Below are positions 1,999 to 61,871 of a stretch of DNA of 64,000 bases, piece by piece. This DNA comes from Cycas panzhihuaensis (taxonomy: Eukaryota; Plantae; Cycadophyta): assembly GCA_023213395.1 (NCBI GenBank), contig CM041465.1, positions 34,727,741 to 34,791,740 on the forward strand, read 5' to 3'. A program made the translations under genes and the position numbers. The notes under the pieces are model-generated. The model had not been told where the DNA came from. It saw only the letters and a program-made list of their open reading frames with translations, and did no database searches. Position 1 is the first letter of the stretch, and each line of letters begins with the position of its first letter.

Positions 1999-2331
1999 TA
2001 TAATACTATTAAAATAATAGGAATAGAGATTTAATAAAGTAAGGATTAACTAATCAATGACATAAAAATTTAATTTCAAATAATTGATAAAATCTCAAAC
2101 ATGAATTATCTTTTATTTCTCTCTTTTTACAATGCCCTATACATGCATAAATATAACTCTAAAATAGAATCTAAATTCTAACCAAATGACATATATGAAG
2201 TGATTGCTGTAACCCCCAATGACTCATCACTCACATAAACATTAGAAAAAAATCTATACCTAATATAATAGAAAAAATAGAGAGTCTCATAATCTAAAGC
2301 TATGAGTCATAAATAAACATTAATGTCGACA
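1999..2331 (-). repeat. 3' LTR of Copia A
   Basis: Direct repeat of 20854-21168; ends GTCGACA next to the PPT complement. Confidence 0.88.
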
Positions 2332-2349
2332 CTCCTCCTTAATGTTTAT

Positions 2350-3091
2350 TTTATTTTTCTTTATACCTAAACCATTCTTGAAAGTCCAAAATTTATTAAG
2401 TGCTAGTGGCTTGATGAAGATATTAACCAACTATTTTTTTGTCAACTTGTACACCATCTCAATTGTACCTTTCTTAAATTAATTCTAAAATAAAGTGATG
2501 GTGTAACTTAATATATTTGATTCAAGCAAGGGACATAAGATTCTTCATAATATTTAAAGTACTATGATTATCACAATACAAGACTATTACTTCTAATTAT
2601 AGTAGTCCCATGTCCTCCAAAATCTATTGTAACCAAATGGATTTAGTAGTCAATGAAACTATAGCCTAGTACTCTACTTTAGTTAAGAATAAAGTAACAT
2701 TTTATTACTTTTTATTGCTCCAAGTGATGGTATCTAAACCCAAACTAAAATAGTACTTAGAAGTCGACTTTTTGTTATCTACACAATTACCCTAATCAAA
2801 ATTTATGAATCCTGTCAACTTAAAATTATTATTATTCTAGAATTTAAGTCTATATTGAATTGTCCCTTTTAAGTATTTGAGAATCCTCTTTGCAACTTCT
2901 TAGTGACTCTATTTTAGCGCTGGGATAAATATAAGCACTAATCCAACTATAAAAGATACATTACGTCTGGTAGTAATTAAGTATATTAGACTTCATGATA
3001 GTTGCTATATAATGTTGAATCAACATTTGTGCCACCATCTTCTATTGTTAATCTAGAACCTATCTCCATAGGGATAAGCATACATTTATAA
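2350..3091 (-). pseudogene. Copia A pol remnant: RT C-terminus and RNase H
   Basis: Minus-strand VNIFIKPL (ADIFTKPL motif) at 2403-2427, with many stops. Joining across the TSD restores ILKKFRMDDYKCMLIPMEIG. Confidence 0.85.
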
Positions 3092-3096
3092 TCATC

Positions 3097-5650
3097 TGTT
3101 TCCCAGCTACTAGGAATGGACTTGAGGCGCATCGACGCAGGTTTGTTCAGGTATATTTTCTTACTTTTCTTGCCTATGTTAATTAAGGTAATTTAGAGTA
3201 GGTTGCTTGACATCTGCCTGCTTGTACGCGTTGATTGCCTGCTTGCTCATAATGCATGTGCCTAATGATACGCCTTCAGCCTATGATGACCCATAGCGGG
3301 GGCATTCTTCAGCGAATGCTACACCCCGTATGGCATACAGCCACCCATGATGTCTCCACAGTTTCCTGGGATTGTTTCCGCCAGTTTATTTGCTCATGTT
3401 GCAACATGTCGTTTGCGTTGCCATCCTTTCTAAGTCAAACTCGATCCTTAGTTAGGACTTTTTGGGTTGTTTTGGGTACTTGCCCACTGCCTGGGCATTC
3501 CCCCAGCTGCCCTAATTCATGTTTGGCCCCTGATTTTGCTTCAAAACTTGATTTTGCTGCTTGTTTTTCTCTTTTTCTAGTTTCAGTCGTCTGCGGTAAA
3601 CTAAGCGATGCGATTGAGTTTGCGCAGATGCAGAGAATTTACCGCAGACGATCGCTTGAAATTTAAAAAAAGAGAACCACGTGACAGTTTCCGTTTTTTT
3701 CGCGAAACTGCCACGTGGCTTCGTTTGATTGGAGGTGCCCTGACATCCCCAACGTTCACCTGCTATGAACAAGGGATAAAGGGAATTTTCCTCCCCATTT
3801 CCAGGACTTTTTGCCCATTTTCTAAATTTTCAAGAGAATTTTTCAAGAGACTGCACACAGGAAAAAAGATAGAAAACAAAACAACCTCATGTACAGCAAC
3901 TGAAGAGGGTGAAACGGGTTGTGGTGGCAGGGCCATTACTGCCCCTTATAACTCTCCACAGCCAGCTCTACTCCCTTTTGCAAGTGCTCAGAGATTCAAG
4001 GGTCTCCTTCAACCAAGAAGCTGCCCTAAAAGTTTATACCATAGCTCCAAACTTGCAAGGAGCCTCTTCTATTCATACTCCAGCAGAAAGAGTTCATAAC
4101 CAGCCTCTGTTTGGCCTCCATTGCTGCTGATCTAAGTGGCAGAAGGCATGCTTAGTCTCTTTACACAAGGTACCCCTTAGTTTTCACTTGCAATTTCTTA
4201 TTTTTTGTACTTGCACTTTCTTTTCTTTTTTTGCTTGCAATCCCTTGCCTATATTTGTAATTTTCTTGTTTTTATCAACAAGTAGCCCATTCATTTCTTT
4301 TGTGTTGTCTCTTTTACTTCCAAATGAGAGTGATCACCATTGGCCATAGCTACCCTGTAGTGCTCTCTTGAACCAAAGCCACTTTCCCAGTTTTTCTTGG
4401 AGCCCTTCCTTTTTCTTTAGACCCTCTTTTACTCTTTCCTTAGTCAGCCAGTGCAAGGGCATATACACGAGGATTCGAGGGAGGTAGGTGGGGTTCCATC
4501 CCCCATTGTTGTCCTTCTCCCCAAGGGTTCCATCCCTTGTCCTCTGCCCCTTACTATACATGCTATCTCAAGGAATGAGTCAAGGAGGTCTAGGGGACTT
4601 TGGCTAGGGCATCCCGACCAGTTTGAGGTAATTCGCATCCACCTTGTTACCACTTGGCGTTTCTTTCCTGCACTCTATGGAGATCTCCCGTGGGTGAGTT
4701 AGCCATCCCGAGGCTATACTCAGTTCCGTTTCGCGTGTTCGTGGTATTTGGTAGTGTGAGAGTTTCTTGTGAACTTTCATTTCGTTTTTCTACATTCTAA
4801 TGCATAACTTAAGTTATTTAGCTTAGTTGATTTCAGTTTACATACATATACATATATCTTTTACTGTACTTTGTAGCCTCTCCCCCTGAGAGGAAGGTGC
4901 TTTTCACACTTGTTTACAGGATCGCGTTGGAGGAAGTGGTGCGTGAGATGAACCCGCTGCCGGTTAGCTCCCACACGGTATTTCTCTTCTTTAGTTTCGA
5001 GTTCCTTTTTCGTCCTTTCATTTTATCTAGTTCTTGCATGCTCAAGGGGAGGTAAGTGAACCCCCTTTACCACCGTCGACCGACATTGCATGCGCGGAGA
5101 AAGGAGGGAAGGAGCGCAACCTAGAAGGAGAAGCTGTGCTTCTACTTGAACACTGGATCCAGGTATTCCTCTCGTTTCTTCCGTATTTCCCCTTATGCTA
5201 TTTTTGTCCTTTCGCATTTGCCTGAATAGATAAGGTGGGATAAAAGAACATAAAGAAAAAGGGAGAAAATAATCGTTTCTTTGCATTTACTTTCTTGCAC
5301 TATTTTCTTGCTTTACATAGCATAGGTGTAGAAAGCCCATTTATATTGTACCCTTCAGCCACACCTTGCTTCACATCTGTTTGCACGTTAGATTTGTTGC
5401 CCCCTCATTGCCTTCTCATTACCTTGAGAAGCCGTGATGTCTTGAGGTTTCCTTTCCTTCCGGCCATCAGAAGGGTAGGAAGGCCTCGTTTTGCTACACA
5501 GGAAGCAACCAGGCATCTTGCAGCCCCGAACCTGCGCTCCGGCGCACGAACGTCCTACGAGGTGAGATCCTTGCTGCCTAGCCTAGTTAGTTTAGTGTTT
5601 TTATATCCCTTTGCTAGACGTAGGATCACTGCCCCGCAGAGAGTATTTTA
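3097..5650 (+). repeat. 5' LTR of Tat element
   Basis: Near-identical to 14829-17384. Starts TG after the TSD and ends GAGTATTTTA (3' LTR: GAGCGTTTCA) one base before the PBS. Confidence 0.95.
3677..3719. promoter_or_regulatory. Paired G-box (CACGTG) elements within an inverted repeat in the LTR U3
   Basis: CCACGTGACAGTTTC ... GAAACTGCCACGTGG (14/15 inverted). Palindrome GCCACGTGGC at 3710-3719 is conserved in the 3' LTR at 15430-15439. Function is inferred. Confidence 0.5.
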
Positions 5651-5651
5651 C

Positions 5652-5669
5652 TGGCGACCATACTGGGGA
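5652..5669 (+). other. Primer binding site, tRNA-Arg type
   Basis: TGGCGACCATACTGGGGA directly after the 5' LTR. Resembles TGGCGACTCCACTGGGGA, the tRNA-Arg PBS typical of Ogre/Tat elements. Confidence 0.85.
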
Positions 5670-5921
5670 CTGCCAGTAAGGGAGCTAAATTCGCTTCCCC
5701 TTCTTTTCAACGTTCTTGCCTCTAGGTAGTTTCGTATTCCATGTTTTCAGTTGGGCAACCCCCAACGTGCACGCTTCACTTCCCTTCTTTTCTCTTTTTG
5801 TTTCTTCTAACAACGCTCGCAAAGGCGTTGCATGCGACGTTTCTCGCCGCCATGAGGTTTGCCTCCGTTGCTAGAAGACCAATCACCCCGTTCCCTTCCG
5901 TCGTCGAACCCTGGATCGACA

Positions 5922-8530: not shown

Positions 8531-8900
8531 CGGAATTTCCCTTTCACTATTACTATAGATACTCCCGATTGCACGTTGTGAAGAACTATCGTGGACAACG
8601 GTTCTTCCGTCAACGCCATGCCTTTGCGCGTTATGTAAGAGCTTGGCATTTCCACCTTAGAACCTGTTCCTTGGCATTGTCAGGGTTATGACGGTAGCGA
8701 GAAGACTCCCTTAGGATCTGTCTCGATACCCCTTACCCTCGAGGACAAGACTGTCGTTACCGACATCATCGTCCTTGATGTTGATGTTGATTACAACTTG
8801 CTTCTAGGTCGACCATGGCTTGACCAAATGGGAGCTGTGTGTTCCACCCGTTGGAGGCAACTTAAATTTGTCCATAATGGACAAATGAAAGTTGTCTTCC
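8531..8900 (+). pseudogene. Tat aspartic protease (two in-frame stops)
   Basis: L*RTIVDNGSSVNAMPLRVM*ELGI...GYDG...YNLLLGRPWLDQMGAVCSTRWRQLKF. Confidence 0.9.
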
Positions 8901-9691
8901 ACGAGCAATCGCTCGCCAAACCAGCTAGACCTTCCGCCCAGGCAAGCCATGGCCATACGAAGGGAAACAAACGCCCTTACGACCATGCCTTAGCTTGCTC
9001 CATTGGAATCCCTAATTCCTTGTATCAAGAAGACGATCCCATGCCTTCTTCTCCTAGTCTGATGCATTTTGCTCCTATTGGTGTCGGGAGCTATAGGTAT
9101 CTTGCCGTATTTGATGATGACGGATCCCATAGTGAGGACGAGGATCGTCCTCACCCAGTCTCGCTCCTACGCACCAGTGTGGGACGTCTTCCTAGCCCTA
9201 GGCTCCCTCCTAGGGCCTCTTTTGTTGTAGAGCCGGGCCACTTTCACATGTCACATGACATTGCGCATGTCGATCATCGCGTTCCTGGCTCTTCTGTCCT
9301 GTCACCTCCCGTAGGTGATGATGTTGAGAGTTTCCCTCTTGCTTTTTACGAGGGACCTCTCCTTGACTCTCCTTCAGAGTCCCTGAGGGATGATGGGCAG
9401 TTTTTAGGCCATACCGGTCCTATTGCTCCCACGCTATCACGTGCCTCACCCATTCGAAGTCAGGTCATCCATGGGGTGGACTACTTCGAAGACGACGAGG
9501 CTTTGCTAAAACACTTAGCTGGTTCCATGCCGAGTTTACCTCCTGGTCACCACAAGCTTGGCCACCAGAAGGTCTTAACGATTGGGTCCACATTAGCCAA
9601 CCCAATCCCCTCTTTCGTTTCCTCCCTTCCAGTTGATCTTGCCCCCCTCCATTTCGAGGAGGGGAATGCCATATGCATGGGGGCAACTTAG

Positions 9692-13449: not shown

Positions 13450-13514
13450 CGTAAAGGAAAGGCTCTGGTTTTGCACGAGAGCCGGTGAAAATGAATTTGA
13501 TTTTCATCGTTTTT

Positions 13515-21727: not shown

Positions 21728-24700
21728 GGTTAGAAAACACTAAATAAATAGACAGGATGCCATGATCATTTATGTACACAATAGACACAAATAAAATAAT
21801 CACATAGGATAACAAGTTTAATGTGGGAAACCCTTTCGAGAAAAACTCACCACAAGATTATAAAATTACATTGATACAAATCTACTATAATGTTACAATG
21901 GACTTAGATCTTAATTTATAGATCTATAAGTGCCTTGAATAATTAAATTTAGATTACATCTGTGGGTATATTTACATCACATATTACATCAAGAATATTC
22001 GTACAATATCTTCACATTTATATTAGTCGATAAATAGATATAATGCCACTCTAACATCCTCTCTTAATATAAATGTGAGGTGTTAAAGCCTTCCTAGGGA
22101 TTGGTCTAACTCTTTATCCTTGTTGATAGATCCCCCCTTAAGGATAACCTTGTTGAATATCAAATTTACATGAATTTTAATGAAGCAATCTTTAGTAAGA
22201 GTTTGATAAACATGTCCTCAAGTTAATCTTCACTTAGATAAAACTCAACTTGCATCTACCTTGATCTAATCATCTCTCAGAAATAGTGGTGCTTTGCCTT
22301 GTATCTATGTGATTCTTTGGAAATATCTCTAAAAGTCTATACGACCATATAACTCCTCTCACACTCACACTTAGTCCATGATATTCATGCTTTTTCCTTG
22401 ACTAAACCAAGAGGTTGAGTATTGTAGATCTCCTTTTCAAGTCTTTGTTAAGAAATGTTGATATCCTATTCATTTGATATGACTCTCAACTATATGCAAT
22501 TGCTAAAGTAAAGATCAATCAAACTGATAACAATATTGAAACTAGTGCAAATGTCTTTTCATAACTGATTCCTTATTTTTATTTGAAATTTAGTGTATTA
22601 AGTCTTACACTTGCAATCTTGCATGTATCACTCCTCCTCTATTGCAACTTTTTATTATGAATATCCTTTTGTTAATATTATTTATGTCGATCCTTGTTCT
22701 TCAATCATCCTTTAGGTCTTTAATCATCATTCTAGATTCCTCAATAGGCTATAATAGAACATGAGTTACAATCTGTACCTCTTCTCATAATGGTTCATCA
22801 TTAATACTCCCACTAGGTCTCGCTTATGTCTCATAAATAATGTTAATTAAAAACTTCTATACCTATTGAATCATGGCTTGGAAAAGGAAAGGAATGAAGG
22901 ATAAAACCTATTTTTATATGACACCTCAACATGATATGGAAATAACTCATTTAATTAACACCTAGACTAATAACAATGCTTTCCCCCTATAGATCACATA
23001 ATTTATAAGCTTTGTTCTAAACCCCATATAAATATATTTTAAACTTTTGCAATCCTATTGTTATGATTTTTGTCTAAGATATATGCAATTATTGCACCTA
23101 AATAATCAGTGGAATGTTTTGTCGATCCAACATAATTCAAGGGGATAAGGCCATGAATAGCCTTAAAAGGGATCCCATTAAATAACTATTGTAATATCTT
23201 CTACCCAAAAGCATAGGAGGTAAATCCTTATAATGCACTAAACACCTCCACATCTACATCATAGTACCATTCTTCATTTGCAACATAATCTTACTAGGGT
23301 ACACGGGATAACCAACATCCCTATTTTATACCATAATCAAGGTAGAACTAATTTTAAGTCATTCTTGTAATACACCTTTAATTTCAATACAAACATATTA
23401 TTGAATCTACATTAGACTTGTTCAAATATACACACATGTTGAACCAACATTTGACATGTAATAAACCCCATGCTATCATTTGTTCAACCGCTTAAAATAT
23501 AATAGTCCACCACGATCTAATAATCAATTATATAAGCATGCCAATAAATAGCAATTTTGAACCACTCCACTTCATATATCTGATGTAAAAGTACTACTAT
23601 ATATAAAAAAACACTACTTTCTTATAACAAATCACACATTTTAATAATGAATGTAATAATCAATTACCATTATTTATTTGCCCTATAGCTTAATATCTCC
23701 ATACAACACGCCCCTTCTATCAATCAATGAGCATATACCGATGTTGATAGGTTGCCCATTAATCATTCCCTCTTATCAATCAGTGAAAACCACTGCCATT
23801 GATATCTCACCCATTAATCATTCCCTCTTATCAATCAATGAAAAAACCACTGATATTGATAACTCACCCAACAAACTCTCTCATGTAAACACATGTAATA
23901 AAAGCATACTATCGCCTCATATTGTAATTATATCACTCACTTTGCGATTAATATGTCACCTCATGCATGTCATTAAATCTTTAAGACAATGTCATAGACC
24001 TCACAATACACCCACTTAAAAAAGAAAAAAGGCTAGATCTCATCCAATGATTTCTTTATATATCAAAGGTCACTTACAACATGAAATAAAGAAGGCCACT
24101 TAATATTTCAAGATAACTTAAGGTTATTAATGACTAATATCAAAATAAGCTCTTAATATATTGATAAAATTCTAATCAAAAAATTAATATATCAATAGCC
24201 ACGATTGATACCAGTTATGAAAAACTAACCAACAACCTTAATATATTAATCAAAAGACAAAATGCATTATATATTAATAAAAAGTGATTTCCATTAATCA
24301 AGGCAACTTTATATTAAAGGTGATTGATATATATCAAATATCAAACACGACTTTATATTAATCAACGGTGAACTCAACCATCCATTATCAAAATATATCA
24401 TCACATAATGAAGAACAAGCGATTAAAACGTCACACTAGCAATAAATATTAACTGGCAATTTAATAATATACTATTAGCAATTAAATTGATGAATACTTA
24501 GTATTTTAATCATAGATATATTATGGCTAACCTACAATCATTAGCACTACAGTTGACTTAATTTTATTCATTTAATTATGATTAAAGATATATCAACAAG
24601 CAATTGAATATTTAATCATTAGGCAACATAATGTATCAAACGAAGGGTGATTTAATAAATTTATCGAAATACCTTTAAGTATTATCACACAGTATTCATT

Positions 24701-34435: not shown

Positions 34436-37400
34436 TAATGGAAATATGGAAGTCAAAGGGAGCGACATAGTGCAACAAAGGGAAAATCAAATCTCTAGAA
34501 TAATTATGGAGTTGATGAACATTAGGGTCTTTAGATATCTTGAATAAATAGATAGGAGTTAAGTGGGAACTTAACATCTACTGCTAACTAGTATTTAGAG
34601 AAACCATTAAGAAATCCAGTTAAATAATAATAATATTTGGCTAAGTCGGTTGCACCAATCCATATGTTGTTATATGCTGATATGTGATGATATTAGCCCT
34701 AAGGATAATATCTAATATTTCTCCCCCATAATGCCCATTTGGGGAGACTTCAAACTTGTCTTTGAATTTATTAAACTTAATTTTTCTAAGTGCCTTAGTG
34801 AAAATATCAGTGACCTATTCTTCTATGTTGTAATAGGTCAACGTAATCTCGTATGCTTAAACTAATTCCCTGATGAAATGATATTGAGTTTTAATGTGTT
34901 TCATTATGCTATGAAACACTAGATTCTAAGTCATTTGTATGGTACTTTTATTATCACATAATATTTGTTTAGAGCCATCATGTTTTACCTATAAATCCTG
35001 GAGTAGTCTTCTTAGCCAAACTATTTCACAAGCTTCTACTACCACTACTTTGTATTCTACTTTTGCAGTAGATAATGATATTGTTCTTTGTTCTTTGAAT
35101 TTTAAGTTACTATTTCCAAACCCAAACTGAAGGTGTAGCTTAATAGAGATTTTCAGTCATCTATACATCCTGCCTAATCTGAATCTATGTACCCAATTAA
35201 TTTAAAATCTCCTGATGACCTATAATGAAGTCCATGACTAACTTTTCCTTTCAAGTATCTAAGGATCCTCTTAGTTGCTTGCTGATGTGTCATCTTAGGC
35301 GCATGAATAAACCTAAAAACTATATTAACTGCATACATGATGTCTAATCAAGTTAAAGTTAAGTAAATCAAGCTATCGATCAATTACTTATAAAGAGTAG
35401 GGTCAACAAATGTAGATTCTTCATACTTAAATAATTTTACCCCAACTTCAGCTAGTGTAACAAGTGCCTTATAATTACTCATGTTCAACTTATATAATAA
35501 GTCCAAAATGTACTTTCTTTAGGAAATAAATATCTTATTCTCATTTTGCCAAACTTTCAAGCCTAAGAAGTAGCGTATAAGTCTAAAATCATTCATTTTA
35601 TATTTCTTATACATATCTTCTTTGAATTTTTGGGACAAGTGAGGAGAATTTCCTATATAAACAAGGTCATCAATGTATATGATCATAATGAGTATCAATC
35701 TTCCTTCTATCTTGATATACAAGTTGGGATCAGATTAACTCCTTTAGAATCCTTTATCTCTAAAGTACTTATCAATCCCAGAGTAATAAGATGTAGGTAC
35801 TTGTTTAAATCCATACAAGACTTATTTTAGTTTATAGACCTTGTGTTCTTCCCTATTTACTTCAAAACCTTTGGGTTATTGAACATAAATTTCTTCTTCT
35901 ATGTACCCATTCAAGAAAGCACTTTTAACATCCATTTGTTGAACTGTCCAACCCTCTTGTGTGGCTAAACCTATCATTAGATGAACTGTCTTCATTTTTA
36001 CAACTGGTGCAAATGTCTCATTGTAGTTAATACTTCTAACTTGTACATATCTTTTAGCAACTAATATTACCTTATATTTATCAATTATTCCATCCAATCT
36101 ATATTTGGTCTTATAGACCCACTTTATTCTAATTACATTTTTATTTGGTGCCAAATCAACTAACACTCAAGTATCATTTTTAACTAAGGCATTGTGCTCT
36201 TCCTTCATGGTATCTTTCCATTTATCTTTTATATTAGCCTCTTTAAAATTATGAGGCTTATTTAATTTTATTACTTGACTCATCAAGGTAAAGTTAGCTC
36301 TTTGAGAGTGAGTGGTCCTTCTCTCAAATTTGTTGTCTAAAATATTCAGAGGATCATGATCCCTTTGAATCCATTTTGTAACCTTTTGATTAAATGTGGA
36401 GAGTCTTTCTTCATTTGGAATTGGAGTATTTGTGGACTTTAGATTTGAATCAACTTCAACTATAATCTTATTTCCTTTATCTTTTTCAACTTCTTCTCGA
36501 TAGCATTCATCTTCCTTGAAGATAGCATCCCTAATTACAATTATCTTCTTTTCTTTTACGTCATATAATTTATAAGATCCAGAAACATCACAATATCCTA
36601 TAAAGATGCACTTGGTACTTTTATCATCTAACTTTGTTGTTCTTTGTTGTGGAATATGGACATATGCTATAAGCATTAAAAAATCTTTAAATGTTATACG
36701 CTTGGCTTATGACATGACCAAGCTTCCTTTGGTGTGATCCACCTAATAGCCTTGGTGGTATGCCTCTTTTATAATTAGATTGTTTTATATACTACTTTTA
36801 CCTAAAATTCATGTCCAAGTTGCTTGTCCTTAAGCATACTTATGGTCATTTCAACAATAGTTTTATTTTTTCTTTCTACAACTCCATTTTGTTGTAGAGT
36901 ATAAGGATTGGTGAGTTGCTTCCTTATATCATAGTAGTTATAATATTCCTTAAATTCATTTGAAATAAATTCTTCCCTATTATCTAATCTAAGTGTAAGA
37001 ATTCTAAGACCACTTTATTTTTCATCCAAAGTTTTGAAGTCAATAAAACATTAAAAGGTATCTGATTTGAACTTGCTAAAATATACCCAAGTATTTATAG
37101 TAAAGTCATCAATGAAAGTCATAAATTATTTTGCACCATCTAATGAAAATATATCCATAGGTCCACATAAGTCTTTATAAACTAATTGAAGAGGGTCTTG
37201 AGCTCCATAATTATGATTTGGAAAACTTTCTCTTTATTATTTCCCAAGTATGCATCCTTCATAAATTCCTTTACTTGCTTCTATAGAGAGGAGTCCAATC
37301 ACCTTCTCCATCATTTTCATCAATTCCAAGATATTATAATTTACATGGCCAAACCTTTTATGCCATGTTTCACTATCAACATTAGTTAAGGCTTTTAAAG

Positions 37401-40400: not shown

Positions 40401-40976
40401 ATGACAATAAAGATGCAATAGTAATTGTAATGGGATACAAACTCCTTCAATGGTAATATGAAATACTCATGAATAACATGCAATGAAGGGTATTTTCTTC
40501 AATTGAACTCTAAATAATTGGAAACTTTTGAAATAAGCTTATGAAAAAGAAATATTGACTAATAATTTAAATGTATTAAGTATGTATAACAAAAGAGCTC
40601 TTCACAAGACTTTGAATGTATCTTTAGGTGTGTGGATCACTTCTATAATAAGACAACTCTTGAACAACATTCTAACAACACTCTGATACCAAATAATAGA
40701 AATATAGAAATCAATGAGAATGGTAAAGTGCAATAAAGGGAAAATCATATCTCCAGCATAATGGTGGTATTAATGAAGAATAGGGTCTTCAGAGCCCTTG
40801 AGTAAATAGATAGGAATTAAGCAAGAACCCAATGTCTACCATCGATTGGTATTTAAAAACACTATTAAGAAATCCATTCAAATGATGATAATATTTGACT
40901 AAGTTGATTACACCAAGCCCTATACCATTCTATACCAATATATGTCGATATTAGCCCTGATGGGTATTATCCAATA
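34436..40976 (-). mobile_element. Full-length degenerate Copia element E
   Basis: LTRs 34436-34717 and 40694-40976; PBS rc ACTCTGATACCA 40680-40691; PPT rc TTTCTCCCCC; TSD GATAT/TATAT. Confidence 0.92.
34750..38840 (-). pseudogene. Copia E gag-pol remnant
   Basis: ATG at 38840 (MATNL..PKFDGSNY); WYIYSRCSTHM protease; WHKRFGH; KLDDKSTKCIFIGY; KWVYKTK..LVAKRY..QMDVKSAFLNG; IYIDDL; DIFTKAL. Confidence 0.92.
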
Positions 40977-41459
40977 TATATATTAGTAGAAACAATAATA
41001 TAGTTGTGACTTTTCAATTTAGAATGAAGCTCCAAATTAATAATTTTAAATAAACTCTACCTCTTTATCATAATACAAATAAGCCCTATAATATGCCTAA
41101 AAATGATATCATATGCTTATATTATAATAAGAAAGGTCATCTTGAGAAGAACTATTAGAAAAAGAAATCAGATAAAAAGAATGTTAGAAATACAACTACA
41201 AGATATAATAACCTAGGAATATCAAAGTAATGTCATAATGGACCTAAACCATAATTATAATCTCTTACATCTCATCATGTAGGAATACATATAGTCAGGT
41301 TATGAGCATATGTGGGATTATTTTCCACACTTATAACTAATCACATTTGGCCTTTATATTGACTAATTATACATGACTTATTAGTTAACTAATTACATTG
41401 AATGTGCATTATCTTTCAATGCTCCTCCATAATATATATTTAGATATATACTTAGATAT

Positions 41460-45490: not shown

Positions 45491-46979
45491 ATGAAAAATC
45501 CCTTATAAATAAAAATTAATAGCCAATAATTACAAAATCAACCACAAATATAAATCAAGCATGATCAACCATGATCATAATTAGGAGAGAGCATAACCAA
45601 GTACATAAATATCCCTTCAAAATATGATATGTACTAGCATGACCTATCCCTTCAATTAGGGCCATCTTCTACCTCCTTTAAACTTTATTAAGGAGCTTAA
45701 TTAGGTTGCCACTAGGGTTTTAAATAAATTTCCCCTAGGGCCAAAAAGTAAGCTTTAACATTTATGAAATATTGCTAAAAAATTACATTAAATGATCATC
45801 AAATGCTTATAAAAAAATTCTTTATTGGTTACCACATAGAGATCCAAATAAAGTATTAATTTTGACTAAAAATATCTCAATGGAAATAACTCTAAACTGC
45901 TTCAAATTATATATTAAAATGATTGTCTTTGAATTACAATTCTAATAGTTTAGATGGCTCACAAAGTAAACTCCTCATTGTAAAAATTATAGGCAAAAGA
46001 ACATAGATACCTTCAAAATAAAAAAAAAAAGAATTATGAGGGATTTAGCCTCTTTCACCTTATAGTGCCTGGTCACTTAGTAATAGCACGTGACCTTTTT
46101 CTTGACTAAAGAGGACTCTATAAACTTGAATGAAATATCTAAAATAGTTTAATGTACTAAAACTTTTATTTTAAAAAAATAAAGGAAAGTTAAATATTTG
46201 CAAAGTAATTAACCATTAATGAATAATCTGTAGCAGCACAATCTCTGTGAAACCCAATAAAATCTTCTAAAGAAATCAATGGAGGATTGAAATCTTCTTC
46301 ATGATGTAATTATTCTACTTGGGCAAGCTTGGATCTTACTAGACGTGGTGATCTTTGTACTTGGAGGCAATGCACAAGCAATGAACACAACCCTTCAAGG
46401 AATAGAGGAGTGTGTATAGAGGCATCAATTTATGATTTATCAATGTAGAGTAAAAGTATAGGTAGAGGAGGTAGAGAATTATTTATAGACTAGAACATCT
46501 CATGGATTGAGGAGAGGTCTTGACAAGGCTTGAAACAAAGGTATCTCAATTACCAACTCATATGTAGGATATGAAAACACAAACAGGATATAAAATATCT
46601 CTCTTATAATGCAAAAAAGAAATCAAAGACAATAAATAACTATTCAAACCAAATTTATTGATCATAATAGGAAGGGTAAATTAATTATCGCCTTTATTTT
46701 TTATTTCAATAGAGTTTCACTTAGCTACAAAAATTCAATATACATGAAGAAGGGTTTGAGCTATATTTATAAGTCTCAAAGCACCTCAAATAATTACACT
46801 ATTGGCAACATAATAGTCTAACATAATTGGCCCATTATTCAAGATAGGATAGACTAGACATAAATTTATAATATGATTTGATTATATAATAATACAAAGA
46901 TGGTACAAGGGTACATTTATATATATAAATGTCATTATAGTTTTAACATCCTCCCTTAATGACAACCTCATTTATCTCG

Positions 46980-50772: not shown

Positions 50773-50777
50773 CTTAA

Positions 50778-53700
50778 TATTAGAGAGAGTGTTATAGAGT
50801 AAAAAAATATAAACAAATTAATCATACACAGTGCACAAGATTTGGTAGGTGGAAAACCCCTTTAGATGAGAAAAATCCACCTCATAATAATAATTTATAA
50901 TATGAAATCAATAAGTAAATACATGAAGGAATTTTAGAGAAAAATGATCTTATCCTCTCTTATTTAGAAGTTAGTCAACCCTACGTACAATCTCCACTTG
51001 TTTAACCAGATCTTTGACTAAACTTTCTTACCTATCTTGACTAACTTCCTCGAATCTAGGAAGAGATATTTAAGAAGATGAAGGTTTGTTGAAATAGGCG
51101 GTTATCCATTTCAGTGAATCACATAACTAATATAGAGTAACATTAATATGATAACATTAATATTTGAATCTAACATTAATAAAAGGAACCTTATTTAAAG
51201 AATATAAAGCTAACATTAATAATTTAGAACATCCCCCTTTAATGTTAGCTTTTGTATAATAGATGATATAGAAGATAGAGGAAAGAAAAGAAGATGAAGA
51301 AGAAGACTTCAACATGGTGATATCCCTTTGATGAAGTCTTATTCAATCTTCAATAATTCTTATAGTTTAACAAACTTTGCTTTGGTCAATGGTTTTGTAA
51401 GAATGTCTGCAATCTGCAAATCTGTACGACAATAAAATAAATTAATAGTATTATCATTCACAAGATTACATATAAAGTGTTGATGTAATTCTATGTGCTT
51501 TATCCTAGAATGTGCAACAAGATTAGTAGGAATGGATATGACACCTTGATTATCAACATTAATTTTAATAGACGAGTTAGGAAATAAACCAAGTTCACTT
51601 AAGGTAATAAATTTGAAATATTATAAAGAATATTTTTTAAATAAAAACACGTACTTTGAGTTGCCTGGTCTTAAACAAAGACTTAACTTTAGATGTGAAT
51701 TTGTAAGTCAAAATGGCATCGAAATAGATCAAGTGAATAGTCGATACGTTTGCATCTGAATTAGGATTTCGATGCTTCTTTCAGAATTGAATTTGGACTC
51801 CAGATAAGAAAGTTATTAATAAAAAAGTATAAATACCCTCTTTTTATAAAGAATAAAAAATAAAATAAGGGTGAAGCCCCTTTTTATAATTGGACTAAGG
51901 TCACATAGGAGACAAAGGTGATCGAGGGACTAGTGGGTAGGGGACTAGCACCTTGCAGACCTAAAATAATGATATAATATAATTTAATTTAAAATAAACA
52001 TTAAAAATAAATAAATAAAATAATAAAATAATGGTGGTAGACCTAGATTAGAAATAAACTAAATTGAAAAGTTTTTACATACATAAAAACTTTATTTATA
52101 ATGGAACTAGTTTCACATCTACCAAAGATAAAAGACATTTGATTAACCCTAAATAGGTTTTAAACTATTTTCTGCATGCAAGGGGTTGAGGGCAGTGGGT
52201 GTTTGAGTCTCCTTCTATTTCTCTGGTCTTCCTCATATGTCTATAGAGAATGGCATTACAGATAGGCTTTAATCCCTATTTGCATTTCTACTTTACATAG
52301 GTATTTGTATGGAATGCATTGCAGATAAGCTTCAATCTCCATTGACATCTTCTATTTGGGTTTTGTCCTCTAAAATTCAACAAGATGATGGCATTTGCCT
52401 CTCAGGAAAATGGAAAAATGATGTTGCTTCCTGTCAATGATCTCTGCTAGCAGTGTGGGAATAAACCTTTGTTGGCATCATCTCATTGTTTAAATACTTT
52501 CTACAAAGTTTATCACCATGGGATTGCTACTTCTTTCACAACAACAAACATTAGTAAAAATAATTATATTAATTTTAGAAGTGCCTTTCAAGGTTTTATT
52601 TTATATATTTTATTTCATCATTACATGTGGTGGTGATCTTATTTTATTTTATATTGTAAGGTTTTAATACTATTCTAGAGTTTAAGCCTTGGCTAGATGT
52701 TTAGCTTGAATTTTAGCAGAGGGAGAGAAGGAAGCAACCTTGATATCTAATAGGATTAGTAGGCAAATAAGAGATAGGTAATTAGGTCATGGAAAACAAG
52801 TGTAATAGGGTTTTTGGTACCTATTTAAGTTTTGTAGATATATTGGTCTTATTTAGACCTTGAACAATATACAGTTTTATTTTTATAAATACAAATCTTC
52901 TAAGTACTTTGCATTTTAATAAATATTTGTTAAAATATATGACCATACCACCTAATGTAAAGTGGGCCTCCTATTTTTATGCCTAATTATGTGGAGGAAT
53001 ATTCTTAATTATGGTGACCTAATGGATGTATTTATAACTATATTTGGTACTTTAGATCTATAAATATAGATAAAAGTCCATCTTTATAATATATCATTTT
53101 GTCATAATGTGAATATTATTTATTTGTGGGTTTTCACCTATAAGGGTATCCCATGGTAATATGGTATCCTGTGCAATCTGCTTCTGCTTGTTATCTGCCT
53201 GATGTGAAAGATCTTGTTGACCTTGTTTGCTTTAATTGCATTTTCTAACATGGTACCAGAGCATGTAGGTTATGCACATGTAGATGAACATTGTTAGAGG
53301 TCTAATCGATGGTTCCAGGTCATGCTAGCTAGCTTGCCCTTAGCAGATTGGCATTCCTGATAAACTTGTAGAATAGCCACAGTAGTGAAGATGATCGCTG
53401 AGGATCCTGTGAGTCCTTTATCCATTGTTTCCAAGTACTTTGAGCCACATGGAGGTGTGTGGATGAGCGTTGACTCCATTGCCAGCCATACGAGTGTCAT
53501 TTGAACCTGCTAAAGGTGTCATATCCCTATTTGACATTACCATTGAGTTTGCATATTGTAGAGTTGATTGTCAGTGCCTATTGCTGGTGGGAGAGTGTAG
53601 AAACCCTAGTGAGCCATTGTAGTACCGTGAAATGATACTATGGTAATAAAACAAAGGTATGCTCATCATATAATAATGTTGTTGATATTTTAGGGTTTTT

Positions 53701-56700
53701 GATTTATATTATCACCCATATATTATATTGCTGGTTAGTTTATACTTATTACTAGTGATTGATATATTGAGTGTCTAAAATCTCACCACCCATATCCTCT
53801 GTGTTATTATATTACACTGTATGGTATATTACACCATATATCATATATGTCAGTTGCCATTATTTTTTATTAATCCTCTTATTAATATATTGCCTACATT
53901 AATAAATATTCACTGTGATGGAATCTTTGTTGGCCATCTATATTCTTATTACCCTTTATGTTCCACTCGTGTTGTAGTTTTACATTCACCTCAAGTATAT
54001 TTATGATGTTTGAGTTGTCATTTTTATATATTGAAGCTTGTATATATATTTTGTAGTCATGCAAGTATGTTTACTATGTCCAATCACCATTTTGTGATAG
54101 ATGCACATGCATTTTCTATATTTTGCAGTAGTCTTAATCCTTGGGTTGGGTGTAATCTACGTTTAGTATGCAGTAGCCCATAGTGTGATGATTACTATCC
54201 ATCCATATTCGTTGATATATATTCGCCATTTCTTGCAGTTATTTACATATTTGTGCCATCAGTATACCATATCATTGATTGCTAATTATGTATTTTATAT
54301 TTGTAGTCTGCATTGTTAATTATTTATAGTCTATGATTGATTATTCAGTTGCTTAGATTGCCGTGGATGTACACAATTTTTTGCATTGACTGTGTGTTAT
54401 TAATATACATCTTTTCATATATATATTTCATATATATTGAGTCACCAAAAGTTCGTTGCCATTCACCCTTCATATATCATTTATATTAATGTTATTTAAT
54501 ATTAAGTTACCTTTTGTGTTATCAATGTCATCTTTTTATTGAATCACTTTGATATTATTTTAAAGATGTTTAGAGCCATTGAGATGTGATATTGATATTT
54601 TATCCTTTATTTATTCACCCATGACCTCTCTCATATGAAGTAGCTCACATTTGACAGTTGCCCTTCAATGCGATACATATTAAGGCAACTATTTGAGGCT
54701 CTCTTGAGTGTATTACATGGAAAGACTGGGTAAGAGTTGGGCATGTTTTAAGAGCACTTTTGATGGACTTGTAGAGAGCCAATTTGAGGGTGATGATGGG
54801 AGAGACTAAGTGAGAAATTAGTCATGCTTGTAGGGCGAGATGAGGCATCATGTTACCTCCTTGAATGTGTTTTACGTAAGAGAGGTTGAGGGCGATGTCA
54901 AGTAAGTTTAATGGGTGAGATTGGGTGAGAGGAAGAAAAAAAGAGCATGTTTGAGATACCTTAACTGCAAGTTAATACAAACTCTATTACTGTTTAGTGT
55001 GGCATAAATCATTACAAGATTTATGTGATTATTTAGTGAAATATAAGTGGTTGATTCAATGAAAAAGAGTGATTTATTCATGATATATATTCTAGTTCAG
55101 TTACATTAGATGTATATAAGGTGAAGTTTATAATTTACTTGTATGATTGTCATTTTAGATCATTATACTTTTAATTAGTTAGATTGTTAGCATGAGCTTT
55201 GTGGCCTGGTTAAATGTTGGTTCAATATGGGTGCATATCTGAACAAGTCTGATGTGGAACCGAGATAGTGTGTTTGATAAAAATAGAAGTGTGAATGGAA
55301 AGGTCTAAGACAAGATGCCTTAAAATCAGTTATGCCTTGTCATGGTATGTATAGCTGGCCTATTAGGTTATATTATAGGTGAATATCATGATGCAAATGG
55401 TGAGGTTTGGTGCATGTTAGTGTTTGCCTCCCATGGTTTGATGGTAGAAATTGTAGCAGACAGGTATGGTACCCTTGTTGTGACTATTCGTGGCATATTT
55501 TCCTCTCGTGTGTTGTGTTTGGATCAAGTCGAAAGCCTTCCATTTATTTCCCTTGGTGCATTGGAGCGCACACATCTTAGACAAAGATTACAATAAGAGG
55601 ATTACAAGTGTTTGAAGCATATCGGTTGTTTAGCTTACAAACAGTGTGATCTATAGGGGAAATGCATTATGATTAATCTAGATGTTATAGAGTTGTTGAC
55701 ATATTATGCTGAGTGTCATTTGGTTACAGGTTATATCCTTCATTGGTTCACTTTTCTAAGTCGTTATTCAGCAGGTGTGGAGGTTTGTTTGCCTAACATT
55801 ATGCTTGAGACAGAAACAGGACTCAGTGACAGGTTGATGATGAAGAGTTGTTAGTTGAGTAGACATGGATTGCAGTCCCATGTTCCATTAATAGTTGAAG
55901 ACCTATAAGATGATGTAAGATTGTGGATCAACATGCTAGTCAAAACTTGAGATATATACCAACATTCCAATGAGTACAGATTCATGATGGAGAGTTGTAT
56001 TGAAGCAAAGAACCTTCTTAATTTGCAAGTTGGTAAGCTTATTATGCAGGATCTAAAGCATGAAGAAGGATTAAGGTATGATGAGATGTTTAACACCAGT
56101 CTCTATGTTTATGGTCCATTTGATCCTTACTTTAGCACCTTCAGATAATTGGGTATCGTATCATATCATATCAATGTTCCTTAACAAAGACTTGAAGAGG
56201 AGATTCACATGGTTTAAGTGGCTCAAGCTCTTGGTTTAGTCAAAGGAATATGTTTGAGTTAAATGGACAAAGTGTTAGGTGCAGAGAGAGCTATATGGTT
56301 ACAGGTCTATTGGAGCATTTCTAAAGAATTGAGCACATACAAGGCATGGCACCATTACATCTGAGTGATGATCGCTACATTGATGTTCATGCATATTGGG
56401 TTAAGTAAGGTTATCCTTGAGAGGGCATTTGTTCCCAATGATAATCCTTATTTCCCCACATTTACATTAAGAGGGGATGTTAAAATATGTGACCATACCA
56501 CATAATGTAAAGTGGGCCTCCTATTTTTATGCCTACTTATGTGGAGGAATATTCTTGATTATGGTGACCTAATGGATGTGTTTATAACTATATTTGGCAC
56601 TTTAGATCTATAAATATAGATCAAAGCCCATCTTTATAATATATCATTTTGTCATAATGTGAATATTATTCATTTATGGGTTTTCACCTATAAGGGTTTC

Positions 56701-57385
56701 CCATGGCAATATGGTGTCCCATACAATTTACTTCTGCTTGTTATCTACCTGATGTGGAAGATCTTGTTGACTTTATTTTCTTTAGTTGAATTTTCTAACA
56801 ATATTCTTATTTTATTTATTTAAAAAAAAAAGTATGTATGAGGGTTTGATAAAAACCTTATTTCATCTTCAACTTTTGTTTGAAAAATGCATGTTTGAAG
56901 ACCCTATAATTTAGATACCCTACTTTGATACCATGTTAGAGAGATGGTTATATAGTCAAAAATTATAAACAAAATAATCATACACAATGCATAAGATTTG
57001 GTAGGTGGAAAACCCCTTTAGAGGAGAAAAAACCACCTCATAATAATAATTTATAATACAAAATCAATAAGTAAATACATGAAGGAATTTTGGAGAAAAG
57101 GATCTCATCCTCTCTCGTTTAGAAGCCAACCAACCCTATGTACAATCGCCATCTATTTAACCAAATCTTTGACCAACCTTTCTTGACTATCTTGACCAAC
57201 TTTCTAGAATCTAGGAAGAGATATTTGAGAAGGTGAAGGTTCATTAAAATGGGTAATTGTCCATTTCAAGAAATCATATAACTAATATAAAGTAACATTA
57301 ATATGATAACATTAATATTTAAATCTAGCATTAATAAAAGGAATCTTATTGAAAGAATATAAAGATAACATTAATAATTCTAACA
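50778..57385 (-). mobile_element. Non-autonomous Copia derivative H (~2.7 kb native), interrupted by I
   Basis: LTRs 50778-51231 and 56934-57385; exact TSD CTTAA; PBS rc ACTTTGATACCA 56922-56933; PPT rc TCCCCCTTT. Only the RNase H C-terminus is recognisable (DNQG...KHIELHQHFI...QIADILTKPL, ~51350-51605). Confidence 0.9.
52928..56800 (+). mobile_element. Non-autonomous ~3.9-kb Copia-derived LTR element I
   Basis: 323-bp LTRs 52928-53250 and 56478-56800 (TG..CA); exact TSD ATATT; PBS TGGTACCAGAGC 53251-53262; PPT AAGAGGGGA 56469-56477. Interior is homologous to B. Confidence 0.93.
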
Positions 57386-60300
57386 CTTAATGTAAGGTCA
57401 TGGTTTGAGAGTGGGGCACCAAGAGTATTAAGTTGGTTCCTAATGGTCTTTACTTTAGTTAGGTGAGAGGCAATAGAATTAGAAAAAGGGATGGTAAATA
57501 AGTAAGCTTTTAATGTGATAAATCTTTACTCATATTTCCTCTCATAAAGGGAGTATATGGTGCTCCATGCTTCATGTGAGGTACCCATGGTTTCAAAATT
57601 TTGGTCGACATGATCTTCAACCACAAGATAAATAAAGGAAAGGATAATATTATCTTTAACTTAAAATATAGTTAGGGTAATAGGATCATATGGGATTTCT
57701 CGATTCGGATTATTGGAATCCTTAGTGGGTGTAAGTTTGACAATGTCCCCATTCAAATACAGTCAAAAGTCATTCATAATCAATAAGTTTTTGATTTTTT
57801 CTTCCAAGCCAAAAGTCATTGCTTCCACTTAGTTTAATATTGTTAAACACTAGTGTATAAGCTATCATGTTTTATGATTTTCTTATCTATTTACTTGATG
57901 GGATACTAGTCTAAACTATTAAAGTCTTAAAGGGTCTCTAAGAAGCCCTCATTTGATATTATATATAGTGGCACTTGCCCACACATGGAAGTTCAAGGAC
58001 TCAATATACTTTGGTACACGAACAAATTAAGCTCTATATACCTAAATATATGAGTATAAAAGGTAGACTACCCCCTTGATAATGTTTGTTCACCTGCATC
58101 AAATTTATGTCAAGTGACAGATCTCGTGAAGGACCATAATCTAAGGTACTCACCTCCTCTGGGTCTAACTTAGTCTCTAAATAATAAAGAATGGGTTTGC
58201 ACATCAACTTGCCATTAAATATGACTTATAGCTAATGTCTTTCTCTATTGTTTGTAGATTTCAAGAAAGAGCAAAAGCATATGCGAAGTGGTAACTTTAG
58301 GGTTCCTATTCATTCCCCTCGCAAGGTTGGAAAAGTCTTAGTAATTCAATTTGAGATTATCTTAATTAATCTTTCGACTTTAAATTCCTTTTAATGTGAT
58401 CTTGCTTAAGGTGATTACTCTCTTTTATTCAAAGAAAGAATAAAGGAGAACAAAAGAAGTACAAATAAATGACAAAGGATTGGGTTTAGAATACTCAAAG
58501 GAAGAGACCATGCTTGTTAATAAAGAGTAGCCTTTCTCATATAAGTAGAGAACTTACAACCATAATGCAATGTAAACATGAGTCATATATCAGATATAAA
58601 AGCCAGTCGAATGATAATAAGTAGCAAATAGTAATAAATTCCCTTTATAAAGTGTGAAATGAGTCTTTAATTAATGAAATAGGTCTTAAATAACACATAA
58701 AAAAAGGTTAATTTTAGGAGAGTAAAAGGTCCTAAAAAACTTTCCAAAATGGTCTAAAAATAGCTCCATCTTATAATGCTCTAAGTCAGGAATCTAGTGA
58801 ATTTTATGATTTAGAAAATAAATGCTCCATTACAAAGTTATGATAGAAATAATATCATCACCTCTTTATGAAGTAATAAAGGAGAAGGGATGGTATTAAG
58901 CCCCCTTAACAAGTTAGCCCCTGGTCGCTAGTCTTCTGCACATGATCGCCCACTAAAGAGAGGAAAATGCTATAGACATTACACTGAATTTTAATTCAAT
59001 TTAATTGATCAAAACCTTTGTAAAAAAAATATTACAAAGTTAAAATTTAAAAACCAAATGTCCATTAATCGAAATATCAAAGGTGTAATAGAATGAAGAA
59101 ATTTAATTGTAATCAAGTATAGATAGCATAATCTGCTTGGGGATCATAACAATAGCTCCCATAGGGCAAGGGAGGATGATTACACTCCATGTAGACCTTA
59201 TTTAGAACTCACACAAGCACCACAGAGTTGATAGAGGATGGGAGGTCTAACGACAAGCAAGCCAAGGAGTAATGAGTAAATCAGATGCTAGTCATGGCTA
59301 CTAAATACCCTCAATAATATCATTCAGGTTCTATGCACCTCGACAAAGATGGAGAGAGATAGGGGGTGAAGGACCAATTAAAAATGCTAGCTGTAAAACT
59401 AAGTGAGCATGGAGGCAATAAAGTATGAGGGTAGTTATGGAGAGTTAGTCAAGCATGAGGTCACACAAATGTGAGGGCTATTGCAGGTGACTAGATCAAA
59501 GTGCTCAAGTGAAGCAACATGGCACAGAACTATAGGTAGGCAAAAAAAATAGTAGTGAATGATAAAGATCAAATGGCATAGATAGAGTTCCTAATGATCT
59601 GAATGAATTTTGAATAGAAAGAGTGTATATTTAGAATGGATTTGAATGGGTTTCATCATGTTTCAAAATAATCTATCAATTGGGTCAAATGAAAATTCCA
59701 TTTTTGCAACGAAATAGAACTAGACCTTCTCTGATATGATACACCTACAACAAACTTAGTGAAAACAAGAGAACAGATTCTAATACCATATGAAAACATA
59801 AATAAGATATAAAATATCTCTCTTGAAATGTAGAAAATAAATCAAAGAGTGTAAATAACTATTCAAACCAAATTGATTGATCAGAATAAGAAAGGAAGGT
59901 TGATTATCACCTTTAGTCTTTATTCTAGTAGAGTTTCGCTTAGCTAAAAAATTCAATATGTATGAAGGAGGGCTCGAGCTATATTTATAAGTCTTGAAGT
60001 ACCTCAAATAATTACATGATTGGCTGACATAATGATCCAATATAATTAGCCCATTATTTGGCAAGGGACAAACCTAATACACCTTTACAATATAATTTAA
60101 TTATATAATAATACAAAGATGGTACAAAGGTACATTTACATACAAATGTGTCATTATAGTTTTAACATAGGATTCACATACACATCACTATTGGAAGGAT
60201 AGGTGTTTGTTGTGGCAAGTACATCACTCAATCTTTAATAGAGGAGAAATCAAGGGTTTTATACTTGTGACTTATAGATTAGTAATGATAAATAAATGTA

Positions 60301-61498
60301 GGTTTCTTTTCCCACATGTGAACTAAGTAGGCTATATAGGGTTCACTAGTACAAATAAGGTTTAGACAAAAATCATATTATGAAGTAGCAAGGATGGAGC
60401 TCAACAATGGAGGCAAATAGAAAAATTTGGAATCAAACAAAGTCGATCATATTCAAAACAAAGATAAAAGTAGAAATAAATGGGCTAAAATAGAGTCAAA
60501 TAGCTAAAACAATCTCTTTTATTATTTTATATATATACATAGAATGGAATAAAATAGATTCAAATAACTTTGTTGTTTTCATAAATAGAATTAGGTATCA
60601 ATCATAAAACAAGCTCTTTAACAAGCTATGGAACCTTCAACAACAAACTTTAAGCAACAATAGACAGTCAAGAAGTAATTAATTAATCAAAATTAATAGC
60701 TTTATGACTTATGGAATAGGCCCGACATGACAATAGAAATTGATAATCTTCAATTGAGTAGAACTTCATTATAAAACTTCGTTTTAACTTCTTGTATTCA
60801 CCATCATCTCTAATACCATGTTAGAAATGCAACCACGTGATATAATAACCAAGGAATATTATAATAATGCCATAATGGACCTCAACCATAATCATAATCA
60901 TAATCATATTACATCTCACCATGTAGGTATACTTACAGTCATGTTGTATGCATATGTGAGATTATTTTCCACACTTATAACCAATCACATTTGGCCTTTA
61001 TATTGACCAATCATATATGACCTATTACTTAGCCAATTACATTGAATGTGCATTATCTTCTAATAAAGAAAGCCCAAAAAATAGTTCTCTTTTTCTAATG
61101 ATTAAAAGGTCTTTGTGTTTAGTTCTCTTTTTGGTATTAATGGCACCTAATACATTGACTTTGGGGCCTCACACTATATTACTTTCCACAAAGAGTAGTT
61201 TAATGAACTTAAAGATGGATGTAATCAAACCATTATTCAAGGTGATGATAATCAATATAAAGTAGTTGAGCAAGTTATAATTGTTCTTAATAAGCTTGGC
61301 GATAAAATCAAGATCTCTAATATGCTATGTATACCATCATTCAAGTGCAACTTTCTTTCAGTAAGTTGTGTGACTAAATATAAGTTGAAGGTTGAGTTTG
61401 ATGCCATCTAATATATGATCATGGATGATGATTTTTTAATATCTTAAGGAATTGAAAAGAATGGCTTGTATAAATTCTTTGGTACACCTGAGCATGGT

Positions 61499-61871
61499 TG
61501 TGAATTTATGAATGAAAATGAACTAAATATCAACATATATAGAAGATAAATATCAGGTGGAATTAGTTTACCATTAATTATTTCTCATTCATTACAAATG
61601 AATCTTTCCCTTATACAATGCAACCCATAATATACACACAAAATCAATAATGGTCTAAAGTATGACCCATGACTGCCATGATATATACTATAGGTCCATT
61701 GGGGACTATCATAACTCCCATGACATGTGTCATCAACCTTTATAACTCATTACTACTGTGTCCATATATGAACATTAATCTAACACTCCCCCTTAATATT
61801 CATACCAGGCTTTAACGTCGATACAAAATCTAAATTTATCAAACTTATCCTTAAATAAACATTAGTGAAAA
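61499..61871 (-). mobile_element. 3' LTR and RNase H tip of Copia J
   Basis: TGTGAA...TCTAACA (61499-61785) followed by PPT rc CTCCCCCTT and a DKFDKF / IFTN-like remnant. It interrupts the D reading frame; no partner LTR in the window. Confidence 0.65.

What the first reader, a model, noticed from the sequence alone, without database searches (positions are those of the whole stretch)
2311..61804. Conserved stem-loop enclosing the PPT/3'-LTR junction in all eight Copia-type elements, with family-specific arms
Seen: sequence just upstream of the PPT is complementary to sequence just inside the 3' LTR. A: AAATAAACATTAA 2311-2323 / 2339-2351 (13/13). B: TCACATTTATATTA 22012-22025 / 22065-22078 (14/14). 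E: 34728-34738 vs the 5'-LTR copy ATGGGTATTAT 40960-40970 (10/11). F: 41401-41412 / 41429-41440 (9/12, transitions only). G: TGTCATTA 46930-46937 / 46957-46964 (8/8). H: AAAGCTAACATTAA 51206-51219 / 51239-51252 (14/14). I: 56455-56469 / 56503-56516 (14 bp, one bulge). J: 61767-61778 / 61793-61804 (11/12). The arms share a (C/T)ATTA core but differ outside it while staying complementary, and they persist in non-autonomous B, H and I. Inference: a selected cis structure that presents the PPT and LTR end for plus-strand priming or strand transfer. From memory, a similar junction inverted repeat was reported for Sireviruses; these elements show no env-like ORF or multiple PPTs, so the feature may be more general.
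Basis: partly seen in the sequence, partly recalled or inferred. Interest (0 to 1): 0.8.

Follow-up and report, generated by a model that had tools for sequence, protein, structure and literature searches.

The report
Hairpin framing Copia second-strand primer site
Six of eight old plant jumping genes here carry a short inverted repeat around the site where their second DNA strand starts; this feature was published in 2010, but three of them carry it twice, and related elements pair the same stretch with an upstream partner instead, which likely means that a helix at the edge of the primer is what is selected.

Summary
All eight arm pairs are at the stated coordinates. Six of 8 junctions (A, B, G, H, I, J) beat chance in cis. 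E's 3' LTR has lost its arm, and F is at chance level. Arms covary across elements: 48 of 64 pairs outside the ATTA core against 31 permuted, P=5e-5. B and I are one family. The elements group with a Ginkgo-labelled Copia protein, not with Sireviruses.

The generalisation is not new. Bousios 2010 reports this repeat in 14 classic Copia elements and proposes a role in PPT processing.

Two additions were not found in print. First, B, H and I carry a second tract-plus-stem module at the ancestral end of pol. Second, of 49 outside Copia junctions, 15 have this stem and 16 have a hairpin wholly upstream that ends at the PPT; 2 have both, and controls give about 2.5% each. Best reading: a selected helix at the PPT's 5' edge aids plus-strand priming; the function is inferred. 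This scan earlier noted only a related U3 hairpin in microsporidian Ty3 elements.

The parts
2339..2351 (-). A left arm, abutting the PPT (2332-2340); lies in the last codons of RNase H
2311..2323 (-). A right arm, +9 to +21 of the 3' LTR (LTR about 1999-2331; 5' LTR about 20854-21168; an 14-kb element with 2.5-kb LTRs is nested at 3141-17377)
22065..22078 (-). B terminal left arm (PPT 22057-22066)
22012..22025 (-). B right arm, +32 to +45 of the 3' LTR (LTRs about 21728-22056 and 25527-25855; TSD 4/5)
22114..22147 (-). B upstream module: arm 22140-22147, purine tract 22131-22139, arm 22114-22121 (8/8); sits 71 nt after the RNase H 'TK' codons, no TG after the tract
34718..34738 (-). E left arm (34728-34738) and PPT; the matching arm is lost from the 3' LTR
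40960..40970 (-). E right arm as kept in the 5' LTR (10/11)
41401..41440 (-). F junction: right arm 41401-41412, LTR start 41421, PPT, left arm 41429-41440 (9/12, at chance level). F spans 41182-61065 with TSD AAGAA and holds G, H and I nested
46930..46964 (-). G junction: right arm 46930-46937, LTR start 46948, PPT 46949-46957, left arm 46957-46964. G spans 46570-60167, TSD TAGGA
51206..51252 (-). H terminal junction: right arm 51206-51219, LTR start 51231, PPT, left arm 51239-51252. H spans 50778-57385, TSD CTTAA
51299..51344 (-). H upstream module: arm 51332-51344, purine tract 51321-51329, arm 51299-51311 (score 10; fold z -2.87); 72 nt after the RNase H 'TK' codons
56406..56450 (+). I upstream module: arm 56406-56419, purine tract 56419-56427, arm 56436-56450 (score 8; fold z -2.39)
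56455..56516 (+). I terminal junction: left arm 56455-56469, PPT, LTR start 56478, right arm 56503-56516. I spans 52928-56800, TSD ATATT
61767..61804 (-). J junction: right arm 61767-61778, LTR start 61785, PPT, left arm 61793-61804; a truncated fragment without a 5' LTR

Best explanation
These decayed gymnosperm Copia elements carry an 8-14 bp inverted repeat whose left arm ends at the 5' edge of the polypurine tract (PPT) and whose right arm lies 8-45 nt inside the LTR, and it is likely a selected helix that helps the short PPT RNA become the plus-strand primer. Shown: position, excess over chance and covariation. Inferred mechanism: after RNase H clears the RNA around the PPT, the two arms would pair in the single-stranded minus-strand DNA. 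That would evict the RNA just 5' of the PPT, fix the primer's 5' edge, and give reverse transcriptase a duplex next to a hybrid of only 8-10 bp. The upstream modules of B, H and I are likely ancestral junctions left behind when these non-autonomous elements acquired another family's left arm, PPT and LTR as one unit.
For: 6 of 8 window junctions score >=8 against 2.3% of controls and 0 of 8 PBS junctions. Without anchoring, 17 of 21 strong stems end within 6-15 nt of the LTR start (about 11% expected). Outside the ATTA core, 48 of 64 cognate pairs against a mean of 31 over all permutations (P=5e-5; P=0.0004 with B or I removed; P=0.0014 with B and E removed); positions 6-9 show 2-3 Watson-Crick pair types each, including transversion swaps. 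In 49 outside junctions the PPT-adjacent stretch is paired in 29 (15 with the LTR, 16 upstream, 2 both) against 4.5% of controls. The upstream form covaries (82.5% of cells paired, 11 double changes, 0 of 500 shuffles) and survives synonymous-codon randomisation in 9 of 11 elements of the Ale-like clades. So the conserved feature is a helix edge at -7 to -12, not a loop. For the DNA level (weak): no G.U excess on the sense strand (6 G.U vs 7 A.C; 0 vs 3), and B's stem has pair probability 0.92 as minus DNA against 0.19 as RNA. Upstream modules lie 71-72 nt after the RNase H 'TK' codons in B and H, close to where the single junction lies in A, E, F, G and J (75-78 nt). Bousios 2010 proposes a PPT-processing role. 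A T-rich sequence just upstream of the PPT matters for Ty1 priming (as cited in PMC10085805).
Against: No functional data. E has lost the stem and F is at chance level (neutral decay after insertion can explain this). G and F are not predicted to fold. 20 of 49 outside junctions have neither stem at threshold, and whole small clades lack both. Related elements are not independent, so the mutual-exclusion P of 0.016 is optimistic, and the shuffle ignores relatedness. C-to-T and G-to-A decay turns G-C pairs into A-T on both arms, so transition-type compensation is partly free (B differs from its own 5' LTR in this way). The wobble counts are small. In alignment A3 the G.U cells outnumber what one search suggests. 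The upstream modules lack TG after the tract, so they are not proven former LTR starts.
Confidence: 0.5

Rival explanations
1. The stem works in the genomic RNA. [quoted passage not shown] Stem edges at -7 to -12 roughly fit the ~13 bp site spacing of Ty3 RT (PMC5371799 passage). A PPT hairpin is reported in HIV RNA (PMC3601003 passage). The upstream topology is a natural roadblock.
Against: In the LTR-spanning form the enzyme has already unwound the stem before it reaches the PPT (inference). No G.U enrichment. B, G and F fold otherwise as RNA. The spacing comes from a Ty3/gypsy enzyme, not a Copia one.
Confidence: 0.25
2. The repeat is a by-product: fold-back or template switching near the priming site copies one arm from the other, with no selected function.
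For: Near-perfect Watson-Crick arms without wobble are what copying would give. The site is where RT and RNase H stop and restart. About 40% of junctions lack it.
Against: Fixed register within clades, with pair swaps that change amino acids and synonymous choices that keep pairing. Two topologies share one fixed edge. 3' LTR arms do not consistently pair better than 5' LTR copies (B and H better, E and F worse, A, G and I equal).
Confidence: 0.12
3. The stem is selected for another RNA job (packaging, 3'-end formation, strand transfer, or translation termination at the end of pol), and only the T-rich ATTA core matters for priming.
For: The left arm overlaps the last pol codons in A, E, F and G. 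The ATTA core is invariant in 8 of 8, like a T-box.
Against: It persists in non-coding B, H and I. Its edge tracks the PPT even where the linker is long.
Confidence: 0.11
4. Chance complementarity in AT-rich DNA.
For: The window is 34.5% GC. E and F are at chance level. H's LTR repeats the core.
Against: Combined P=6e-9, permutation P=5e-5, positional enrichment.
Confidence: 0.02

Closest known systems
[quoted passage not shown] 2010, PMC2829016; sections 8, 18 and 24, passages and Suppl. file 2 read)
   Same: Left arm borders the PPT; right arm a short way inside the LTR (18 nt on average in classic elements); element-specific arms; left arm may lie in pol; same proposed role.
   Different: Here a gymnosperm lineage with shorter arms (8-14 against 19 nt). 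Covariation is tested. Upstream tracts in B, H and I do carry a repeat, whereas Sirevirus upstream PPTs lack one. The upstream-only hairpin is not described in the parts read.
PPT-containing hairpin noted for Sire LTRs and HIV-1 (Benachenhou et al. 2013, PMC3601003; passages)
   Same: Stem between U3 start and sequence upstream of the PPT; the authors call for a systematic search.
   Different: No data for other Copia lineages there.
T-box/U-box upstream of the PPT in Ty1 and retroviruses (as summarised in PMC10085805; passage only)
   Same: A functionally important stretch immediately 5' of the PPT; the ATTA core sits there.
   Different: Described as a sequence, not as a stem arm.
LTR/internal-region reshuffling by template switching in non-autonomous elements (PMC13570524; passages)
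   Same: Would produce hybrids like B, H and I.
   Different: No doubled PPT-plus-stem module in the passages read.

Membership tests
Ty1/copia LTR retrotransposon | Direct LTRs, tRNA-Met-type PBS, PPT, TSD | tested here: met
   LTR pairs 75-91% identical for 7 of 8; PBS motifs (tRNA type recalled); 5-bp TSD exact for F, G, H and I, 4/5 for B, none found for A or E; J has one LTR only
Ty1/copia LTR retrotransposon | Copia-type RT with gag-PR-INT-RT-RH order | tested here: met
   RVT_2 in A, E, G and F; Pol_BBD and gag_pre-integrase upstream in E; H and B have RNase H remnants only; I and J gave no RT/RH hit
PPT/3'LTR junction inverted repeat (Bousios 2010) | Left arm borders the PPT | tested here: met
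   Inner end at -8 or -9 in A, B, H, I, J and G
PPT/3'LTR junction inverted repeat (Bousios 2010) | Right arm a short way inside the 3' LTR | tested here: met
   Starts at +8 to +32 in 6 of 8; lost in E, degenerate in F
PPT/3'LTR junction inverted repeat (Bousios 2010) | Role in PPT primer formation | not testable with these tools
   Also only proposed in the paper
Sirevirus (SIRE) | Multiple AGGGGGAG octamers in the linker | tested here: not met
   0 copies in 7 elements, 1 in J
Sirevirus (SIRE) | AT/TG attachment site after the octamer | tested here: not met
   TG follows the tract directly
Sirevirus (SIRE) | RT/RH in the SIRE clade | tested here: not met
   A, E, F, G and H join Gb_07759 (support 0.97), apart from the clade of loci with the Sirevirus signature (support 1.00)
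Sirevirus (SIRE) | Long linker or env-like ORF | tested here: not met
   RNase H 'TK' to LTR is 75-78 nt, or 145-161 nt in B and H
Gymco lineages (REXdb) | Placement with REXdb Gymco reference domains | not tested
   No reference set at hand; Gymco I-IV are gymnosperm groups of unstable position (PMC6317226 passage). Membership is plausible only

The most novel reading that the evidence does not exclude
Copia retrotransposons follow a general rule that the 8-14 nt just 5' of the PPT must be base-paired, solved in two lineage-exclusive ways: pairing with the start of the LTR, or with a partner 30-50 nt upstream at the end of pol. The helix sets up plus-strand priming on the minus-strand DNA and also creates a template-switch point. 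That would explain why non-autonomous B, H and I swapped LTRs just beyond an arm and kept two modules in tandem.
Probability: 0.3. Interest if true: 0.65.

Novelty: new member of a known kind. Interest (0 to 1): 0.4.

Why it matters
What, besides the purine tract, tells Copia RNase H where to make the plus-strand primer is still open; the 2010 proposal was not tested in what I read. The finding itself only extends a published feature to a gymnosperm lineage and adds covariation evidence. If the two topologies are one rule, they give a natural swap experiment and a marker for PPT annotation and for LTR-swap breakpoints.

Tried and rejected
No whole genome is held for this window, so the genome-wide survey could not be run. 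Two scans of viral contigs gave no Copia relatives. MAFFT did not put the window arms in register, so covariation was tested by permutation, with the first TAAT of each LTR as a rule-based register. Whole-junction folding z-scores are modest as RNA (-0.3 to -2.1) and were not used as the main test. Contig depth peaks over I's terminal arm and PPT, but the tool says depth cannot rank parts, so it was not used. No RNA holder was listed; no inference drawn. B's upstream stem is not in its predicted RNA fold. The synonymous-codon control is uninformative for clade c3, whose arms are mostly non-coding (P=0.06-1.0), and was not passed by L077 or L069. Sirevirus membership was rejected. PMC4032725, PMC3185511 and PMC11381356 (passages) gave nothing on this stem beyond a low-probability pairing of the Ty3 PPT. 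Nine paper searches found no description of the upstream-only hairpin or the doubled module. The library lacks most subscription journals, and figures and one picture page of the 2010 supplement were not visible.
Full report
Setting. The window is a nest of old LTR retrotransposons, 34.5% GC. Seven Copia elements have both LTRs (75-91% identical). F contains G, which contains H, which contains I, each with an exact 5-bp TSD. J is a fragment with one LTR. A, E, F and G keep decayed RT; B and H keep only RNase H remnants, and I and J gave no RT/RH hit. The best named homologues are labelled Gb_ and PITA (which I recall as Ginkgo and pine gene prefixes) and Taxus. On an RT/RNase H tree of 145 rows, A, E, F, G and H form a clade with Gb_07759 (support 0.97), apart from loci with the Sirevirus signature. 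So this is a gymnosperm Copia lineage; it was not tested against REXdb.

Observation. All arms are as stated. With the left arm anchored at the PPT, A, B, G, H, I and J exceed shifted and shuffled controls, while E (cis) and F do not; combined P=6e-9. E pairs only with its 5' LTR copy. For F, contigs of related copies in 4 runs show the pairing transition at all three mismatches in 23-56% of depth, which fits a decayed stem, but the variants are unphased. The same scorer gives 0 of 8 at PBS junctions. Covariation holds: with the right arm set by rule at the first TAAT, 48 of 64 positions outside the core pair, against 31 on average over all permutations (P=5e-5; P=0.0014 for six elements without B and E). 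E used its 5' LTR copy in this test. B and I are one family.

What is known. Bousios 2010 describes this repeat in Sireviruses and in almost half of classic Ty1/copia elements, aligns it for 14 of them including Tnt1, Copia, BARE-1 and Art1, and proposes that it exposes the PPT to RNase H. Benachenhou 2013 repeats this, cites HIV, and asks for a systematic search. Bousios 2016 shows it only as part of the Sirevirus map.

Outside set. One search returned the best 80 of 576 confirmed Copia stretches, from 2 of 64 parts of the metagenome collection. 49 had a usable junction. The other 31 were dropped because the contig ended early, no RNase H end was found, the PPT call was unreliable, or the locus was a duplicate. 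14 of the 49 had an LTR pair to check the call; several calls were adjusted by hand after I had seen the sequences. The LTR-spanning stem reaches score 8 in 15 of 49 (controls 2.3%), and 14 of 49 pass shuffles. Without anchoring, 17 of 21 strong stems end at the PPT edge.

Second topology. I saw by eye that one clade without the stem has a hairpin wholly upstream whose 3' arm ends at the PPT, and then tested all junctions. The result was 16 of 49 against 2.6% of controls, or 12 of 43 without the six loci of the clade that suggested it; 2 have both forms and 29 have either. It occurs in two separate parts of the tree (Ivana-like and Ale-like; these names are recalled from peptide tails). In 8 aligned Ale-like junctions, 82.5% of cells pair, one position shows U-A, C-G and A-U, and slid registers drop to 25-46%. 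Randomising synonymous codons lowers the score in 9 of 11 Ale-like elements (P<=0.015). The test was post hoc and relatives are not independent. None of the 8 window junctions has this form.

Doubled modules. B, H and I each have a second purine tract with its own flanking stem 50-90 nt upstream (scores 8, 10, 8; control 1.6% at 8); A, E, F, G and J have none. In B and H it lies 71-72 nt after the RNase H 'TK' codons, about where the only junction lies in the others (75-78 nt). I has lost that coding stretch but kept the module. The one pyrimidine in I's tract is a purine in 97-99% of laid depth. No TG follows these tracts. I read them as ancestral junctions bypassed when another family's arm, PPT and LTR were acquired together. 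This is inference; LTR reshuffling by template switching is known. Sirevirus upstream PPTs lack the repeat, so this differs.

Mechanism. Shown: a covarying helix with one edge fixed at -7 to -12 from the LTR start. Inferred: it serves plus-strand priming (about 0.75 in either the DNA or the RNA form). I favour the minus-strand DNA form, because an LTR-spanning RNA stem is already unwound when the enzyme reaches the PPT, there is no G.U excess (small counts), and B folds as DNA but not as RNA. An RNA pause model, a copying by-product and another RNA role remain open.

Verdict. Real in 6 of 8, selected, and already described as a class; this is a new lineage for it. The two extras were not found in nine searches of a library that lacks most subscription journals. 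They raise the interest modestly, to 0.4.

Noticed in passing
L004, L008, L010, L011, L026, L034, L041, L046, L047, L050, L055, L065, L068, L078 (last 60 nt before the 3' LTR; e.g. L065:5036-5071, L008:2143-2177): Hairpin wholly upstream of the PPT with its 3' arm ending at the PPT, in Copia clades that lack the LTR-spanning stem; covaries and survives a synonymous-codon control.
   Followed up: yes
window 22114-22147, 51299-51344, 56406-56450: Second purine tract plus stem in non-autonomous B, H and I at the ancestral end of pol.
   Followed up: yes
window about 31373-64000, + strand: A ninth, plus-strand Copia (PBS at 32677; protein hits at 61151-61477 and 62757-63993) appears to host E, F and J; its 3' junction lies beyond the window. 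Its putative LTR resembles 5-998 (72%).
   Followed up: partly
window 3141-17377: Element with 2.5-kb LTRs (92% identical) nested in A. Its long ORFs have no Pfam hit except a weak plant mobile domain (11642-12292, below cut-off); probably a non-autonomous gypsy-type element (recalled pattern).
   Followed up: partly
window about 51140-51220: H's LTR holds at least four tandem copies of a TAACATTAA-like motif, the core of its right arm.
   Followed up: no
window 34720-34747: E's PPT can itself pair with a pyrimidine run just upstream in both RNA and DNA folds.
   Followed up: no
window 56385-56530: The non-autonomous I family is very abundant: 1941-3397 contigs laid per run in 4 runs labelled as three organisms.
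   Followed up: no
L053, L059: Sirevirus-type loci with four octamers score for both stem topologies; the upstream pairing may involve the repeated linker units.
   Followed up: no
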